A stretch of 64,000 nucleotides of DNA from a virus: positions 1 through 64,000 of the IMG/VR virus record IMGVR_UViG_3300028829_002760, one strand, 5' to 3'. Below are positions 37,377 to 44,312 of the stretch, piece by piece (position 1 is the first letter of the stretch; every line of letters begins with the position of its first letter). A model generated the notes under the pieces. The model was given only the letters and a program-made list of their open reading frames with translations. It did no database searches and was not told the origin of the DNA. The position numbers and the translations under genes are program-made.

Positions 37377-37513
37377 AATGCTATTTGTTGGTTCTACAAA
37401 TATATAAATTTTATTTGTTTAAACTATAAACCCCAGATAAAAATATCTAGGGCTTATATACAGAAATCAGAATGTATGGAAAATTAGATAGTGTAAATCT
37501 AATAAATTTTTTT

Positions 37514-38401
37514 TTAAATAGGAAACAATTTACTATCAACTTTTTTTATAGTCATAGGTTTTGATTCTTTAACTGTAAGCTCTAAAATTCTACCACCTAA
37601 TGGTTTTGGTGGAGCACCTCTCTCAACATGCCACCCTTTACTTCCATCTTCGTATTCTTCTTTATACGTTCCAGTAATGCAATGATGTATTTGTTTATGT
37701 TTTAATCTATATCCTGTATTTGCCCGATATTCTAAATCTTCTCTAACATCATTACGAGATGCATTCTCATGTATATGCCCCATAGAAAAAATATCCATTC
37801 CTTCATACATCTCTAACGCTCTTGTCAAATTAAGAGCCCCCTTGGTAACAACCCCTCCCCCACCAGATCCGTGAAAGTATTTATGTTTAAATGAAGCTGT
37901 CTTAGGTTTTATAGAGTTTTTCCTTCCTATATCAAGGGTATATACAATCCAGCCGCCATATCCTCCCAACTTAATATCTGTATTATGTTTAAGATTCATC
38001 ATTTGCACAAATCTTTTTAATACATCAGTTTCTTGCCACTTAATAATAGCAGTCTCATGATTACCATAACCTATAACTGTAATTAGATGAGCATAGGGGG
38101 CCCACCATTCTACCGCAGTATCCACAACTGAATCTAAGTAATGAGAATTATTATGTTCGGGGAGAATATCACTCTTATTCTTCCTATTATCTCCTCTACC
38201 TTGCATAAGACAGAACATATCCCCTACTATAACAATAGGTATACTCTCTTTCTTACAATAGTTTAAATGTCTTTTTAATAGTTTTCTGTCACACTTAGGG
38301 TTATCCCAATGTATATCTGATAGTATTGCTATGTATGCTTTATTCCCTGTAAGATATATATTGTGGACATTCTTTTGAATTTCTCTAACTTTCATTGCCA
38401 C
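37514..38401 (-). CDS. Calcineurin-like metallophosphoesterase
   Basis: SDIH, GD, GNHE, FHG and GHIH motifs. Confidence 0.85.
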   Translation of the reverse strand: MAMKVREIQKNVHNIYLTGNKAYIAILSDIHWDNPKCDRKLLKRHLNYCKKESIPIVIVGDMFCLMQGRGDNRKNKSDILPEHNNSHYLDSVVDTAVEWWAPYAHLITVIGYGNHETAIIKWQETDVLKRFVQMMNLKHNTDIKLGGYGGWIVYTLDIGRKNSIKPKTASFKHKYFHGSGGGGVVTKGALNLTRALEMYEGMDIFSMGHIHENASRNDVREDLEYRANTGYRLKHKQIHHCITGTYKEEYEDGSKGWHVERGAPPKPLGGRILELTVKESKPMTIKKVDSKLFPI

Positions 38402-40671: not shown

Positions 40672-40736
40672 GAGATATTACTTAAAAAGTATCCAGAGAT
40701 TTGTATATAAAAATACTAAATCTAAATAATAGGAGA

Positions 40737-41333
40737 TGTCTTTACTCCTTTCTTTAAAGACAATTAAATCTAATTACTTCATTCTAATATGCTGAATAGA
40801 CCTGACTAGTCTTTAATAAGAATGATTATGTAGTTTACAAATAGTAGGACGTACCGAGAACCTTTAGCAAGTTCTGTAGTCCCTTAGCCTTATATCTTTC
40901 CTATGTTGGTAGCTTAGTGGAAAGATTATATTAATTCCTACGAAGTTCTTTCTTATAGTTTACTAGTAAAGGTTATGCCTGTAGGTGCGTAATCTTTACT
41001 TATATAAATTTATCCTACCTCAATTGTTTAATAGACAATAAATAGCTTGGGGAAGTTAGAGGTAGGATAGATTTTACATTAGAAAGGCTGTAAGTGTTAT
41101 TTAACACATAGTAGTATTTATACTGCAACAGCGTATACCTAAGCAAGTAGATAAACTGCTTAAACTTCTTAAACCAAAATGTCAGTTCCTACTCTTTAAC
41201 TAAAAGAGAGATAAAACATAGATAATTTTTATAACTGTTATTAAGACAAGTCTACTGACCGTCAACAGTTCTGGTTTATTATCCGTGTTTATCATTTAAC
41301 TTGGAGAGAGATGAATAATAGTAGTCTCTCTCC
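40737..41333 (+). ncRNA. ORF-free region of about ten consecutive hairpins; candidate structured ncRNA(s)
   Basis: e.g. 14-bp stem 40965-41000 with 2 G-U, 16-bp stem 41006-41074, stems 40891-40930 and 41303-41333. Confidence 0.55.
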
Positions 41334-41376
41334 ATAATTAAAACGTTATCATTGAAACCAAATAATACATATATAT

Positions 41377-41625: not shown

Positions 41626-41849
41626 ACGGACATAAAGAGTTCCTATTAACTATGGTGGTTAGGTGTGGAAACACATCTGATCACTACCTAAAACAGATTA
41701 CTCTTCGTTCGTTTTCAGACACAGAATGTTCCTATTTAACTATAGACAAAAAAGAAATACATTCCGTCTGATTTTTTAAACACAAAGAGACATAGAAAGT
41801 TCCTATTTTAAACCAAGATAGAAAAAATACTTTCCGTCTTTTTGTGTTT
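41626..41849 (+). ncRNA. Array of three homologous structured RNA units (GAC-AYA-6 bp stem-UCCUAUU...-C-GUY)
   Basis: Units 41626-41712, 41715-41771, 41778-41849; compensatory stems AAGAGT/ACTCTT, GAATGT/ACATTC, GAAAGT/ACTTTC. Confidence 0.8.
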
Positions 41850-41953
41850 TGTTAAAGTACCATTCCAACTTCCCAAGGGTTGGCAGTTTATACTGAGTAC
41901 TGAGGGGCAAACACTTATTTATACATTTATTTATACACTTAAAACAAGAACTT

Positions 41954-43744
41954 ATGAAAGAGATCTTATTGTTCGGCAAAGCACTGAACACAAAAAACGT
42001 TAGTCCAATCACTGTGAATGAATTGGCAATTAGTAAAGGGTATGTAGTTGACCCTGAATGTTGTAATCAAAGAGTTGTAGACTTTTTAAATAGCATTCCA
42101 AATAATTACAATACTACTTTTTATGCATCTGTTGCAAATGTTGTAGCAAAAGATAGAGTTGAATTACTTATGGATCAGCTTTTACACTATGCATCTACGT
42201 ATGGTACTGAATATGCAGGTCAAGTATTTGTTGTTAATGAAAACTTTGGTGTTATTGATGAACCTACAATTGATTTTAATGATTGTAAAGTTATTAAACC
42301 TATTACTCGAACAGAGATTGGTATCAAAGTGCAAGATATGCTTGCTTCTGGTATTGCTCTAAAAAGTGATACACTTGACAATTTATTTAGTCTTATTGAA
42401 GAATACAATTTTCAAATTGATATCAATGTTGTTAAAAACATTGAAGCCAAGATGAAATTGTACTCAATACTTAACATTCTACCTAGTACAGCAGATGAAT
42501 TTGTTAGATATATGGTTTATCAGATTACTGAAGATACTCTTTTAATCAAAAACGATGAGATGATTAATAAAATTGCTCTTCAATCCCATAATCAAGTACA
42601 TATGATTAATATCAATGAACAAATGATAAAATTTGGATTAGAAGAACTATCTAGTGTCTTCTTTAGATACAAACCACTATTTCTTGCATTGAGAAAACAA
42701 GGTGTTATGATGCGTAGAATTACTAACAAGTTGAGAAAGCTTGCTAATAAGCATCACAAACCATTTGTTCCAGGTTATTGGGAAACTATTCTTAGTAAAA
42801 CGAATTTTAATGTTCAAGAACTTATGTCTAAGGTTAAATCTATATCTAACTTTAAGTTAGTAAGATTGATTAAGGCAATTGATGTTAATTCATCAGGTTC
42901 AGACAAAAGATTCTTTTTAATTAGAAATGGTAAGACTTTTATTAAGGAAAATAACAATATCGAAATTCCTTCTGGTCAATTATGGATGAGAGAAATCTTT
43001 ATGCAATCTCTTATTAATAATTTAAAAGAAAAGAACTTAGGTAGAGTTAAACTTTCTACTAATATTAGACTTGCAATACCTACTTCAGAGAAGACATATG
43101 TTGGTAATATTCCATTTGGTAGCTATATCATTCCTTCAAAAAGTAATTCTATTTTTGGAATTAACTGGTTTGGAGAAGATGGAGCTCAAGATTTGGATTT
43201 ATCATACATGAGTCTTGATGGTAATAAGATTGGATGGAACAGTAATTATTATACTGAAAGCAATTCTATTGTTTACTCTGGAGATATGACATCTGCTAGA
43301 CCTGAAGCTTGTGAATATATGTTTTGTAAGGAAGGACTTCGAGATGGTGTTATTTATGTTAATGCATACCATGCACAACCTAACTCTAAATACAGATTCT
43401 TCACTGGTAAAACTGATGATGATTTTACTGTAAGTAGTGAGACTCCATCTGAAGATATGATAGACTTTTCTTCACCAATGGAAATTACAGGTGAAAGCTG
43501 TGTTGGTTTTTATGTAGATGGTCGTATCTATTTCTCTGATCTTAATCAGGGTAATAGCCGTGTGAGTAATGCTAATACAAGAGTACTTGATACAATTAAA
43601 CATTTTATATCTACTAAAGATTCTTTTGTTTATTGGGATGAAATACTAACTCTTGCGGGTTGCAAGATAGTTGTTGATAATGAGGAGTGTGATGTTGATC
43701 TTAGTGACGGAGACGTTTCTACTATGATATCACTCTTATCATAA
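41954..43744 (+). CDS. Large helical protein with C-terminal TerD-like domain
   Basis: 596 aa; QLLHYASTYG N-terminal motif; GINW..DLDLS..IGW..VYSGDMTSA..E.. pattern of TerD/TerE-like fold. Confidence 0.65.
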   Translation: MKEILLFGKALNTKNVSPITVNELAISKGYVVDPECCNQRVVDFLNSIPNNYNTTFYASVANVVAKDRVELLMDQLLHYASTYGTEYAGQVFVVNENFGVIDEPTIDFNDCKVIKPITRTEIGIKVQDMLASGIALKSDTLDNLFSLIEEYNFQIDINVVKNIEAKMKLYSILNILPSTADEFVRYMVYQITEDTLLIKNDEMINKIALQSHNQVHMININEQMIKFGLEELSSVFFRYKPLFLALRKQGVMMRRITNKLRKLANKHHKPFVPGYWETILSKTNFNVQELMSKVKSISNFKLVRLIKAIDVNSSGSDKRFFLIRNGKTFIKENNNIEIPSGQLWMREIFMQSLINNLKEKNLGRVKLSTNIRLAIPTSEKTYVGNIPFGSYIIPSKSNSIFGINWFGEDGAQDLDLSYMSLDGNKIGWNSNYYTESNSIVYSGDMTSARPEACEYMFCKEGLRDGVIYVNAYHAQPNSKYRFFTGKTDDDFTVSSETPSEDMIDFSSPMEITGESCVGFYVDGRIYFSDLNQGNSRVSNANTRVLDTIKHFISTKDSFVYWDEILTLAGCKIVVDNEECDVDLSDGDVSTMISLLS

Positions 43745-43751
43745 TACTACT

Positions 43752-43779
43752 GAGCAGGATGTAAAAGTCCTGCTCTTTT
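43752..43779 (+). terminator. Intrinsic terminator
   Basis: GAGCAGGA-tgtaaaag-TCCTGCTC followed by TTTT. Confidence 0.75.
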
Positions 43780-43826
43780 AAACTTATTTATTTACTTATT
43801 TATATACTTATTAAAAACTTAAAAAA

Positions 43827-44312
43827 ATGGCAAAAGAATTAGCAATTATTGTTGATGTAGATGGTACATTGGCAGACATGAGAGGTATTAGAGGACCTTT
43901 TGAGTGGGACAAAGTCCACCTTGATAAACCTCATCAAGATGTTATTGACCTTGTTAAAGATTTAGCAGGTGTTGAAGAGATTGATCAATTAAAATATTTT
44001 GATGATGGAACGTCTGGAGAGCGGTTTACAAAAATACCTAAATATAAAATCATCATTACTACAGGTAGAGATGGTGTTTGTGAAGAAGCAACTAGAAAAT
44101 GGTTGAAAGATAATGGAGTATGCTTTTATGATTTTTATATCAGAAAAGCAGGTGACTTTAGGAAAGATAACATCATTAAGTCTGAGATCTATATGGATCA
44201 TATCAGACCTAAGTATGATGTTAAGTTTGTCATTGATGACAGAGACCAGGTTGTTGAGATGTGGAGGTCATTAGGTCTACGTGTCTTACAAGTAGCACCA
44301 GGAAACTTTTAA
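43827..44312 (+). CDS. HAD phosphatase, T4 PNKP (PseT) 3'-phosphatase-like, no kinase domain
   Basis: DVDGTLA, TTGR, D..IK and IDDR..VVEMWRSLG motifs. Confidence 0.85.
   Translation: MAKELAIIVDVDGTLADMRGIRGPFEWDKVHLDKPHQDVIDLVKDLAGVEEIDQLKYFDDGTSGERFTKIPKYKIIITTGRDGVCEEATRKWLKDNGVCFYDFYIRKAGDFRKDNIIKSEIYMDHIRPKYDVKFVIDDRDQVVEMWRSLGLRVLQVAPGNF

What the first reader, a model, noticed from the sequence alone, without database searches (positions are those of the whole stretch)
41626..44312. Tandem structured-RNA array coupled to a TerD-like protein and a PNKP-type phosphatase: candidate RNA-protein system
Seen: three adjacent units (41626-41712, 41715-41771, 41778-41849) share one fold despite different sequence. 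Outer stems end GAC/GUY (ACGGAC/GTTCGT, TCAGAC/GTCTGA, 14-bp AAACACAAAGAGAC/GTCTTTTTGTGTTT), then a 3x1 internal loop (AYA opposite C), then a 6-bp stem with compensatory changes (AAGAGT/ACTCTT, GAATGT/ACATTC, GAAAGT/ACTTTC), an invariant GTTCCTATT, and a variable apical part (CTAT/ATAG pairing in units 2 and 3; a 15-bp G-U-rich GAAA-capped hairpin inserted in unit 1). The array lies about 105 nt upstream of a 596-aa gene with a helical N-terminus and TerD-like C-terminus; the next gene, after a terminator, is a stand-alone PNKP-like 3'-phosphatase. Known: Ro60/TROVE binds Y RNAs through a bulged helix and is linked to RNA repair; type III toxin-antitoxin loci place tandem RNA repeats before a protein gene; T4 PNKP heals cleaved tRNA ends. 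Inference: the units are ligands of the 596-aa protein (Y-RNA-like RNP, antitoxin-like decoys or an autoregulatory operator), possibly countering host RNase-based defence. I do not recognise this RNA family.
Basis: partly seen in the sequence, partly recalled or inferred. Interest (0 to 1): 0.92.

Follow-up and report, generated by a model that had tools for sequence, protein, structure and literature searches.

The report
Phage Y-RNA-like RNAs with TerD-domain partner
Three small folded RNAs in front of an unannotated phage gene belong to a widespread RNA family, absent from Rfam, that nearly always sits beside this one protein family in phages and bacteria, often next to the RNA ligase RtcB, so the pair is probably an RNA-protein particle laid out like Ro60 with its Y RNAs but built from different parts.

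Summary
The three units at 41626-41849 share one fold: an outer stem, a 3x1 internal loop (A-H-A opposite C), a 6-bp stem ending G-U, then UCCU(A/U)U.

A covariance model built from relatives finds the same "handle" on the gene strand beside homologues of the 596-aa protein. It is present in about 45 of 52 viral loci and in 80 of 80 bacterial or archaeal loci, with heavy covariation.

Longer relatives carry a permuted tRNA-like domain that scores below threshold on Rfam YrlA.

In Flavobacteriia the gene follows RtcB, with a WYL regulator and RlaP nearby. That is the position Ro60 and Y RNAs occupy in rsr-yrlBA-rtcBA operons.

The PNKP-type phosphatase is not a family-wide neighbour. In this lineage, however, it shares with the 596-aa gene an upstream motif found only twice in the 110-kb genome.

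Best reading: a Ro60/Y-RNA-like particle for RNA damage control, analogous rather than demonstrably homologous.

This scan has already noted the same pair in at least 65 other genomes. I found no paper describing it, but two relevant papers were not held.

The parts
41626..41712 (+). Handle RNA unit 1: 6-bp outer stem, ATA/C internal loop, inner stem AAGAGT/ACTCTT, UCCUAUU, and an apical 15-bp GAAA-capped hairpin that is a lineage-specific insertion
   Evidence: Fold z -5.65. R1 hit 39.1 bits, E 3.4e-9. The hairpin is present only in the window and L146.
41715..41771 (+). Handle RNA unit 2: outer stem TCAGAC/GTCTGA, ACA/C loop, inner stem GAATGT/ACATTC
   Evidence: Fold z -3.62. R1 hit 58.7 bits, E 8e-16.
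41778..41849 (+). Handle RNA unit 3: 14-bp outer stem followed by a U-rich tract (terminator-like), ATA/C loop, inner stem GAAAGT/ACTTTC
   Evidence: Fold z -7.32. R1 hit 60.9 bits, E 1.5e-16. Compensatory changes are seen in close relatives.
41856..41901 (+). Conserved structured leader element between the array and the gene: outer stem AGUAC/GUACU enclosing two hairpins. It is not of the handle type.
   Evidence: Nearly invariant in relatives at 65-95% protein identity. 4 of 16 predicted pairs show double-sided changes. The single-sequence fold is not significant.
41914..41935 (+). Upstream motif CTTATTTAT-N-TTATTTATA, copy 1, 19 nt before the ATG of the 596-aa gene
   Evidence: Only two copies in the window and in the whole 110-kb genome, against 0 expected. 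Conserved in L141 and L146.
41954..43744 (+). 596-aa protein: helical N-domain (about residues 1-360), TerD-fold beta-sandwich (about 395-548) and a short C-terminal helical tail. Presumed partner of the RNAs.
43752..43779 (+). Terminator-like hairpin (8-bp GC-rich stem plus TTTT) after the 596-aa gene
   Evidence: Read from the sequence.
43783..43804 (+). Upstream motif, copy 2, 23 nt before the ATG of the phosphatase gene
   Evidence: The 88% relative L142 has the motif again at this place and an 81%-identical phosphatase.
43827..44312 (+). Stand-alone HAD_PNKP-type 3'-phosphatase (161 aa, no kinase domain). A lineage-specific neighbour, probably co-regulated.
   Evidence: Pfam PF25109 E 4.5e-44 and PHROG 505 E 2.4e-52. 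Among the viral loci it is a neighbour only in L009 and L142.

Best explanation
The three units are genes for small stable RNAs that share a conserved protein-binding "handle". The handle is an outer stem, a 3x1 internal loop, a 6-bp stem closed by G-C and U-A pairs, and single-stranded UCCU(A/U)U.

The 596-aa protein binds that handle, probably through its conserved basic and aromatic helical N-domain. The result is a ribonucleoprotein laid out like Ro60 with its Y RNAs. The variable apical parts of the RNAs are interchangeable effector modules: plain loops, hairpins and, in relatives, a permuted tRNA-like domain. The TerD domain adds a Ca2+ or small-ligand binding module where Ro60 has vWA.

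The particle acts in surveillance or repair of damaged RNA, most likely tRNA. In bacteria it would work with RtcB. In this phage it would work with the co-regulated 3'-phosphatase and host ligases.

Shown:
- the fold and its covariation;
- the strict RNA-gene linkage;
- the TerD fold;
- the RtcB, WYL and RlaP context in bacteria;
- YrlA-like domains in relatives.

Inferred:
- physical binding;
- which domain binds;
- the repair function.
For: RNA-gene linkage:
- Model R1, built from 36 viral units, gives 110 hits in the window plus 55 viral or phage loci. 109 are on the gene strand and most lie within 600 nt upstream.
- It gives 187 hits, all on the + strand, in 80 of 80 cellular loci.

Covariation:
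- Viral set: 97.5% of cells paired, 10 of 11 pairs with double-sided changes, score 0.769 against 0.24 for shuffles and at most 0.16 for slid controls.
- Cellular set, which was not used to build the model: 99.2% paired, 9 of 11 pairs, score 0.669 against 0.261.
- Invariant features that my scan did not impose: bulged C in 184 of 185 units, and A-H-A in the 5' loop.

Likeness to Y RNAs:
- Long units L049 4894-5017 and L043 2310-2429 carry T arm, hairpin and D arm in YrlA order. They score 40.8 and 33.1 bits on RF02553.
- L039 2230-2348 is a tRNA-like RNA with the handle in place of the anticodon loop.

Stand-alone RNAs rather than a leader:
- Arrays lie downstream of the gene in Phass-1, L011, L078 and L119.
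- Unit 3 looks like a terminator.
- The gene has its own upstream motif.

Context:
- RtcB lies directly upstream on the same strand in 37 of 80 cellular loci. A divergent WYL-WCX regulator is present in 35, RlaP in 30 and an RNase T-like exonuclease in 6.
- Phage homologues lie inside tRNA gene arrays.
- No protein neighbour is conserved across the viral loci, so the RNA is the only constant partner.
Against: - There is no direct evidence of transcription, processing or binding.
- The protein has no recognisable RNA-binding domain, and its N-domain has no convincing structural match.
- Seven of 52 viral loci show no unit within 2.5 kb.
- This phage has no RtcB, no Rnl-type ligase and no tRNA genes, so the repair link rests on distant bacterial homologues and on one phosphatase.
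- The last unit often ends 12-25 nt before the ATG in other loci, which also fits translational control.
Confidence: 0.62

Rival explanations
1. The protein is a true but extremely divergent Ro60 (TROVE) orthologue in which vWA was replaced by TerD, and the units are bona fide Y RNAs with a drifted Ro-binding site.
For: - It occupies the same operon position as rsr in RtcB operons.
- The apical domains of relatives are YrlA-like.
- The N-domain is helical and of similar size.
- The handle G-R-Y/A-H-A followed later by CUAU loosely recalls the GNCGAAN0-1G and YUAY of YrlA (PMC4201824).
- Some earlier notes of this scan call the protein Ro60-like. Those notes are unchecked.
Against: - Pfam TROVE hits none of 60 family members at E <= 1.
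- A profile search of PDB sequences, which include Ro60 entries, finds nothing at E <= 10.
- hhalign against a Chryseobacterium TROVE alignment gives probability 0.2%.
- No Ro60 appears among the VIA or Foldseek matches to the N-domain model. A viral TROVE protein reaches only rank 9 at E 0.25.
- Canonical TROVE proteins coexist with this protein in Chryseobacterium.
- R1 finds no handle beside the canonical gene.
Confidence: 0.15
2. The units are cis-acting elements of the gene's own transcript. They would be operators for translational autoregulation by the protein, or RNA-processing and stability signals, rather than free small RNAs.
For: - The units are on the same strand and mostly directly upstream.
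- In many loci the last unit ends 12-25 nt before the ATG.
- Tandem multiplicity could serve cooperative binding.
Against: - Arrays lie downstream of the gene or 1.3 kb away across two ORFs (L003, L011, L078, L119).
- Some units carry whole tRNA-like domains or sit among tRNA genes.
- In the window the array ends in a terminator-like stem. It is separated from the ATG by a further conserved element and a promoter-like motif.
- The units of one array keep different outer stems and different apical modules.
Confidence: 0.15
3. A type III toxin-antitoxin-like or decoy system: the protein is a toxin or nuclease that is neutralised by, or processes, the tandem RNA units.
For: The RNA array lies in tandem before a protein gene, with a terminator-like structure between them in the window, as in ToxIN loci. 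That comparison is from general knowledge and was not tested here.
Against: - The units are diverged and covarying paralogues, not near-identical direct repeats.
- No nuclease or toxin family is detected.
- The family sits in chromosomal RtcB operons under a WYL regulator.
- Some loci have a single unit.
Confidence: 0.04

Closest known systems
Ro60 (Rsr; TROVE + vWA) with bacterial and phage Y RNAs YrlA and YrlB (Rfam RF02553; Chen et al. 2014, PMC4201824; Salmonella rsr-yrlBA-rtcBA operon)
   Same: - One protein gene is flanked by one to several small RNAs.
- The RNAs are modular: a basal stem with a small asymmetric loop plus variable apical modules.
- One apical module is a permuted tRNA-like domain in the order T arm, hairpin, D arm.
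- The locus is adjacent to RtcB under a ligand-sensing regulator.
- The system occurs in both bacteria and phages.
   Different: - The protein has no detectable TROVE domain by sequence, profile or fold search, and it carries TerD instead of vWA.
- The basal handle (A-H-A opposite C, G-U closing, UCCU) is not the YrlA stem. Rfam matches cover only model positions 17-92.
- The regulator is WYL-WCX rather than RtcR.
- Both systems coexist in Chryseobacterium.
TerD family (PF02342; structures 2QZ7 and 2KXT)
   Different: There is no Pfam TerD hit. The domain is fused to a 360-residue helical domain, and the context is RNA, not tellurite or Ter operons.
T4 polynucleotide kinase-phosphatase (Pnkp), phosphatase domain
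   Same: The neighbouring 161-aa protein matches HAD_PNKP over its whole length (E 4.5e-44).
   Different: It is a phosphatase only, with no kinase domain. No RNA ligase is encoded in this phage.
Type III toxin-antitoxin loci (ToxIN and similar)
   Same: Tandem RNA units lie upstream of a protein gene.
   Different: The units are diverged with compensatory changes, no endoribonuclease toxin fold is seen, and the context is an RNA-repair operon.

Membership tests
Ro60 / TROVE protein family | TROVE domain (PF05731) detectable by sequence or profile | tested here: not met
   Pfam gives 0 of 60 family members at E <= 1. hhalign of A2 against TROVE alignment A7 gives probability 0.2%. A PDB sequence-profile search finds nothing at E <= 10. 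The TROVE alignment was shallow (83-96% identity).
Ro60 / TROVE protein family | HEAT-repeat ring fold of the N-terminal domain | tested here: inconclusive
Ro60 / TROVE protein family | C-terminal vWA domain with MIDAS | tested here: not met
Ro60 / TROVE protein family | Encoded beside its small RNA partners, often with RtcB | tested here: met
   RNA units lie beside the gene in 80 of 80 cellular and about 45 of 52 viral loci. RtcB is adjacent in 37 of 80 cellular loci. This concerns layout only and does not show homology.
Y RNA, YrlA class (Rfam RF02553) | Score at or above the Rfam gathering threshold (69 bits) | tested here: not met
   There is no Rfam hit on the window's units at E <= 10. 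Long relatives reach 40.8 and 33.1 bits over model positions 17-92 only.
Y RNA, YrlA class (Rfam RF02553) | Permuted tRNA-like domain (T arm, AS hairpin, D arm) | tested here: not met
   It is absent from the three window units. It is present in units of relatives L043, L049 and L044. The window's units resemble the short YrlB type at most.
Y RNA, YrlA class (Rfam RF02553) | Rsr-binding motif GNCGAAN0-1G near the 5' end (PMC4201824) | tested here: not met
   The handle reads G-R-Y then A-H-A then the stem, for example GACAUAA. The first loop base is A in 181 of 185 units, not G.
Type III toxin-antitoxin | Near-identical tandem direct repeats processed by the adjacent endoribonuclease | tested here: not met
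   The units differ in length (57-87 nt) and in sequence, with compensatory stems. No nuclease family is detected. Processing is not testable here.
TerD family | TerD beta-sandwich fold | tested here: met
PNKP phosphatase (HAD_PNKP, PF25109) | Match above the curated cut-off | tested here: met
   150.5 bits against a cut-off of 27.6. PHROG 505, polynucleotide kinase, E 2.4e-52, matching the phosphatase part only.

The most novel reading that the evidence does not exclude
This is a second, independently evolved Ro-like ribonucleoprotein system. A helical+TerD protein uses a dedicated handle to carry interchangeable RNA modules, including tRNA mimics, and presents or shields broken tRNAs for RtcB-type repair. 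Phages have captured it to keep translation running against host anticodon nucleases. The handle would be a new RNA-protein recognition code, orthogonal to Ro60/Y RNA in the same cell.
Probability: 0.35. Interest if true: 0.88.

Novelty: new variant of a known kind. Interest (0 to 1): 0.8.

Why it matters
Ro60 with Y RNAs is so far the only known particle of this type in bacteria, and its function is still poorly understood.

A second, widespread RNA-protein pair occupies the same place in RtcB repair operons and sits in phage tRNA clusters. The protein family has more than 1200 clusters at 50% identity. This offers three things:
- an independent handle on what such particles do;
- a large RNA family, absent from Rfam, with an unusually clean covariation record;
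- a candidate phage tool for tRNA and RNA damage control.

The RNA-protein link is directly testable by EMSA, RIP and sRNA-seq in culturable Chryseobacterium, Flavobacterium and Tenacibaculum.

Tried and rejected
Searches that gave nothing:
- Rfam on the window and on the region.
- ARAGORN and Rfam tRNA on the window and the whole genome.
- DNA similarity to deposited phages.
- Foldseek on the whole-protein model gave only noise, with TM about 0.09.

TROVE and Ro60 were sought six ways without support:
- Pfam;
- a PDB profile search;
- Foldseek and VIA on the N-domain;
- BFVD;
- hhalign;
- a TROVE search of the phage's own genome.

Other checks:
- The PNKP phosphatase was rejected as a conserved partner by clustering neighbours across the viral loci.
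- The sigma-70 promoter scan was uninformative, at 20 hits against 19 expected.
- The degenerate fourth copy at 41181-41263, noted by another reader, is not detected by R1 at E <= 1.
- R1 run with filters off on 8 viral loci without hits found only a shortened unit in L028.

Tools and papers I could not use:
- The first protein atlas call failed.
- Alignment A2 was too diverse for the search for related loci.
- Three papers were not held, so prior description of the protein architecture could not be excluded: Burroughs & Aravind 2016 (RNA repair systems), Burroughs et al. 2011 (prokaryotic RING) and Sim et al. 2020.
Full report
**1. The observation**

Each unit has:
- an outer stem ending G-A-C / G-U-Y;
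- a 3-nt strand (AUA, ACA, AUA) opposite a single C;
- a 6-bp stem whose arms differ between units but stay complementary (AAGAGU/ACUCUU, GAAUGU/ACAUUC, GAAAGU/ACUUUC);
- then UCCUAUU and a variable apical part.

ViennaRNA returns exactly this fold for all three on the + strand. The z-scores are -5.65, -3.62 and -7.32, and none of 200 shuffles does as well. The reverse strand is weaker.

Rfam 15 has no match at gathering thresholds in the whole window, and nothing credible at E <= 10 in the region. ARAGORN finds no tRNA.

**2. The protein**

The ORF at 41954-43744 (596 aa, P0001) has no hit in Pfam, PHROGs, NCBIfam or PDB sequences. It nevertheless belongs to a large family:
- more than 1500 relatives in the 90% clusters;
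- 1270 clusters at 50% identity, 835 of them at E <= 1e-30;
- none with a precomputed Pfam domain among those listed.

The AlphaFold2 model has pLDDT 78 for the whole protein and 88 (pTM 0.76) for residues 1-365 alone. It shows an all-helical N-domain with one beta-hairpin, a beta-sandwich at about 395-548, and a short helical tail.

**3. Is the RNA tied to the protein?**

Homologues in three deposited phages (S-CBWM1 gp22, S-CRM01 g174 and Phass-1) lie inside or beside tRNA gene arrays.

I fetched 52 viral loci with a family alignment. A simple scan for UCCUA plus the two stems showed clusters of units on the gene strand just upstream of the gene, even at 30% protein identity.

From 36 short non-redundant units I built covariance model R1. 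Its results were:
- 110 hits at E <= 1 in the window plus 55 loci;
- 109 of them on the gene strand, mostly within 600 nt upstream;
- many units that my scan had not selected, in L010, L012, L014, L023, L050-L052 and the three deposited phages.

With the filters off, one more shortened unit appears in L028. Seven loci remain without a unit within 2.5 kb. In the phage's own 110-kb genome the three units are the only hits.

A scan of one genome per prokaryotic species found 163 cellular loci, of which 80 were kept. They come from Chryseobacterium, Flavobacterium, Tenacibaculum, Kordia, Aquimarina, Pedobacter, Bacteroidales MAGs, Fibrobacter, Treponema, and one Methanobacterium and one gammaproteobacterial MAG. 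R1 was built without any of these. It gives 187 hits at E <= 0.1, all on the + strand, and every one of the 80 loci has at least one.

**4. Covariation**

| Set | Cells paired | Pairs with double-sided changes | Covariation score | Column shuffles | Slid registers |
|---|---|---|---|---|---|
| Viral | 97.5% | 10 of 11 | 0.769 | 0.24 | at most 0.16 |
| Cellular, independent | 99.2% | 9 of 11 | 0.669 | 0.261 | at most 0.185 |

Two caveats apply. Both alignments are fitted to the model, and my seed units were chosen for pairing. The independent set and the features I did not select for argue that the structure is real. Among 185 unique units:
- the bulged base is C in 184;
- the 5' loop is AAA, AUA or ACA in 176;
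- UCCU is invariant;
- the base before the 3' arm is U in 182.

Among close relatives of this phage (76-95% protein identity) the three-unit array is kept, with compensatory substitutions in the inner and outer stems. The GAAA hairpin of unit 1 is present only at 95% identity, so it is a recent insertion into the variable apical part.

GGA, which could pair with UCC, is enriched about 8 nt downstream in a quarter of the units. In most units UCCU(A/U)U has no partner and is probably single-stranded.

**5. What kind of RNA is it?**

Some units in relatives are 85-125 nt long. Between the two halves of the handle they carry a T arm, a hairpin and a D arm in that order (L043 2310-2429, L049 4894-5017, L044 1056-1141). 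This is the circularly permuted tRNA-like domain that defines YrlA Y RNAs (PMC4201824).

Rfam YrlA matches two of them at 40.8 and 33.1 bits, below the gathering score of 69. The matches cover model positions 17-92 only, which is the tRNA-like domain and not the YrlA basal stem.

In L039 2230-2348 the topology is reversed. An ordinary tRNA-like RNA (Rfam tRNA, 52.8 bits) carries the handle, closed by a tetraloop, where the anticodon loop should be. The handle is therefore a portable module that replaces the anticodon arm of a tRNA-like body. The three units of this window are the short, YrlB-like form.

The published Rsr-site motif (GNCGAAN0-1G, then YUAY) resembles the handle only loosely (G-R-Y, A-H-A ... 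CUAU). The first loop base differs.

**6. Is the protein Ro60?**

I found no support for that:
- Pfam TROVE hits none of 60 diverse members at E <= 1.
- A family profile finds no PDB sequence at E <= 10.
- The N-domain model does not retrieve Ro60 by Foldseek or VIA.
- A viral TROVE protein appears only at rank 9 in BFVD, at E 0.25.
- hhalign against an alignment of Chryseobacterium TROVE proteins gives probability 0.2%. That alignment was shallow.
- The C-terminal domain is TerD, not vWA.

Chryseobacterium sp. KCF3-3 has both a canonical TROVE gene and this gene at different places. Several Chryseobacterium species names occur in both lists. R1 finds no handle beside the canonical gene. The two systems therefore look orthogonal. 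Remote homology of the helical domain cannot be excluded without a direct superposition.

**7. Context and function**

Across the viral loci no protein neighbour is conserved, so the RNA is the only constant partner. tRNA genes are frequent neighbours.

In Flavobacteriia the order is a divergent WYL-WCX regulator, then RtcB, the RNA array and the gene. Counts among the 80 cellular loci:

| Neighbour | Loci |
|---|---|
| RtcB | 37 |
| WYL-WCX regulator | 35 |
| RlaP | 30 |
| RNase T-like exonuclease (downstream) | 6 |

This is the place that rsr and yrlBA hold in the Salmonella rsr-yrlBA-rtcBA operon. That comparison rests on the literature as cited in PMC4201824 and PMC7790460.

The phage itself has no RtcB, no Rnl-type ligase and no tRNA gene.

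The PNKP-type phosphatase is a neighbour only in this lineage (L009 and L142). However, the motif CTTATTTAT-N(2-6)-TTATTTATA occurs exactly twice in the 110-kb genome, 19 nt before the ATG of the 596-aa gene and 23 nt before that of the phosphatase gene, against 0 expected. It is kept in close relatives. This suggests that the two genes are co-regulated here, while a terminator-like hairpin separates them.

**8. Organisation in this window**

Unit 3 has a 14-bp outer stem followed by a U-rich tract and looks like an intrinsic terminator. Downstream of it come a very conserved structured element (41856-41901, with compensatory changes in relatives), the shared motif, and then the gene. The array is therefore probably transcribed separately from the mRNA. 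This is an inference.

**9. Verdict**

The interpretation as a Y-RNA-like RNP is the best-supported reading. The coupling to the phosphatase is lineage-specific. The type III antitoxin reading and the pure operator reading fit poorly.

The closest known system is Ro60 with YrlA and YrlB. The window's RNAs and protein fail the membership tests for both families, but they work like them in layout.

This scan has already noted the same pair in at least 65 other genomes. Those notes gave me the lead to look at bacterial RtcB operons, which I then tested myself. Some of the notes call the protein Ro60-like, and my tests do not support that.

I found no paper in the held library that describes the pair. 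Two Aravind-group papers that might mention the protein architecture were not held.

Noticed in passing
window 41856-41901 (+): This is a small structured element between the array and the gene: outer stem AGUAC/GUACU enclosing hairpins CCAACUU...GGGUUGG and CAG...CUG. It is almost invariant in relatives at 65-95% protein identity, with double compensatory changes in L143 and L009. It is not of the handle type and its function is unknown.
   Followed up: partly
window 41914-41935 and 43783-43804 (+): The motif CTTATTTAT-N(2-6)-TTATTTATA occurs only twice in the whole 110-kb phage genome, just before the 596-aa gene and just before the phosphatase gene. It is a likely shared promoter or operator.
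   Followed up: yes
window 41181-41263 (+): This is a degenerate handle-like unit (GTCAGT-TCCTAC ... ACTGAC-C-GTC) lacking the 5' outer arm, also noted by another reader. R1 does not detect it at E <= 1.
   Followed up: partly
L136 2410-2497 (-), Chryseobacterium sp. KCF3-3: An Rfam Flavo-1 RNA (RF01705, 62.4 bits, above threshold) lies about 50 nt after the canonical TROVE (Ro60) gene, on the opposite strand. If this is recurrent, Flavo-1 could be related to the Ro60 system of Flavobacteriia. Only one locus was seen.
   Followed up: no
L039 2230-2348 (+); also L044 940-1052 and L031 1523-1634: These are tRNA-like RNAs of 112-119 nt inside the arrays (Rfam tRNA, 49-53 bits). They have a normal acceptor stem, D arm and T arm. 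In L039 the handle, capped by a tetraloop, stands in place of the anticodon loop.
   Followed up: partly
L044 3530-3806 (+): Rfam tmRNA hit (52.2 bits, above the gathering score) in a viral contig about 800 nt downstream of the protein gene.
   Followed up: no
window 40690-41340: This is about 650 nt without a long ORF upstream of the array, with several hairpins. One stretch near 40905-40925 resembles a tRNA D-loop. Rfam finds nothing at E <= 1.
   Followed up: partly
window 37488-37536 (-): Weak R1 hit (20.6 bits, E 0.006, 14% GC) on the opposite strand, inside an ORF region. It is probably a chance match in AT-rich sequence.
   Followed up: no
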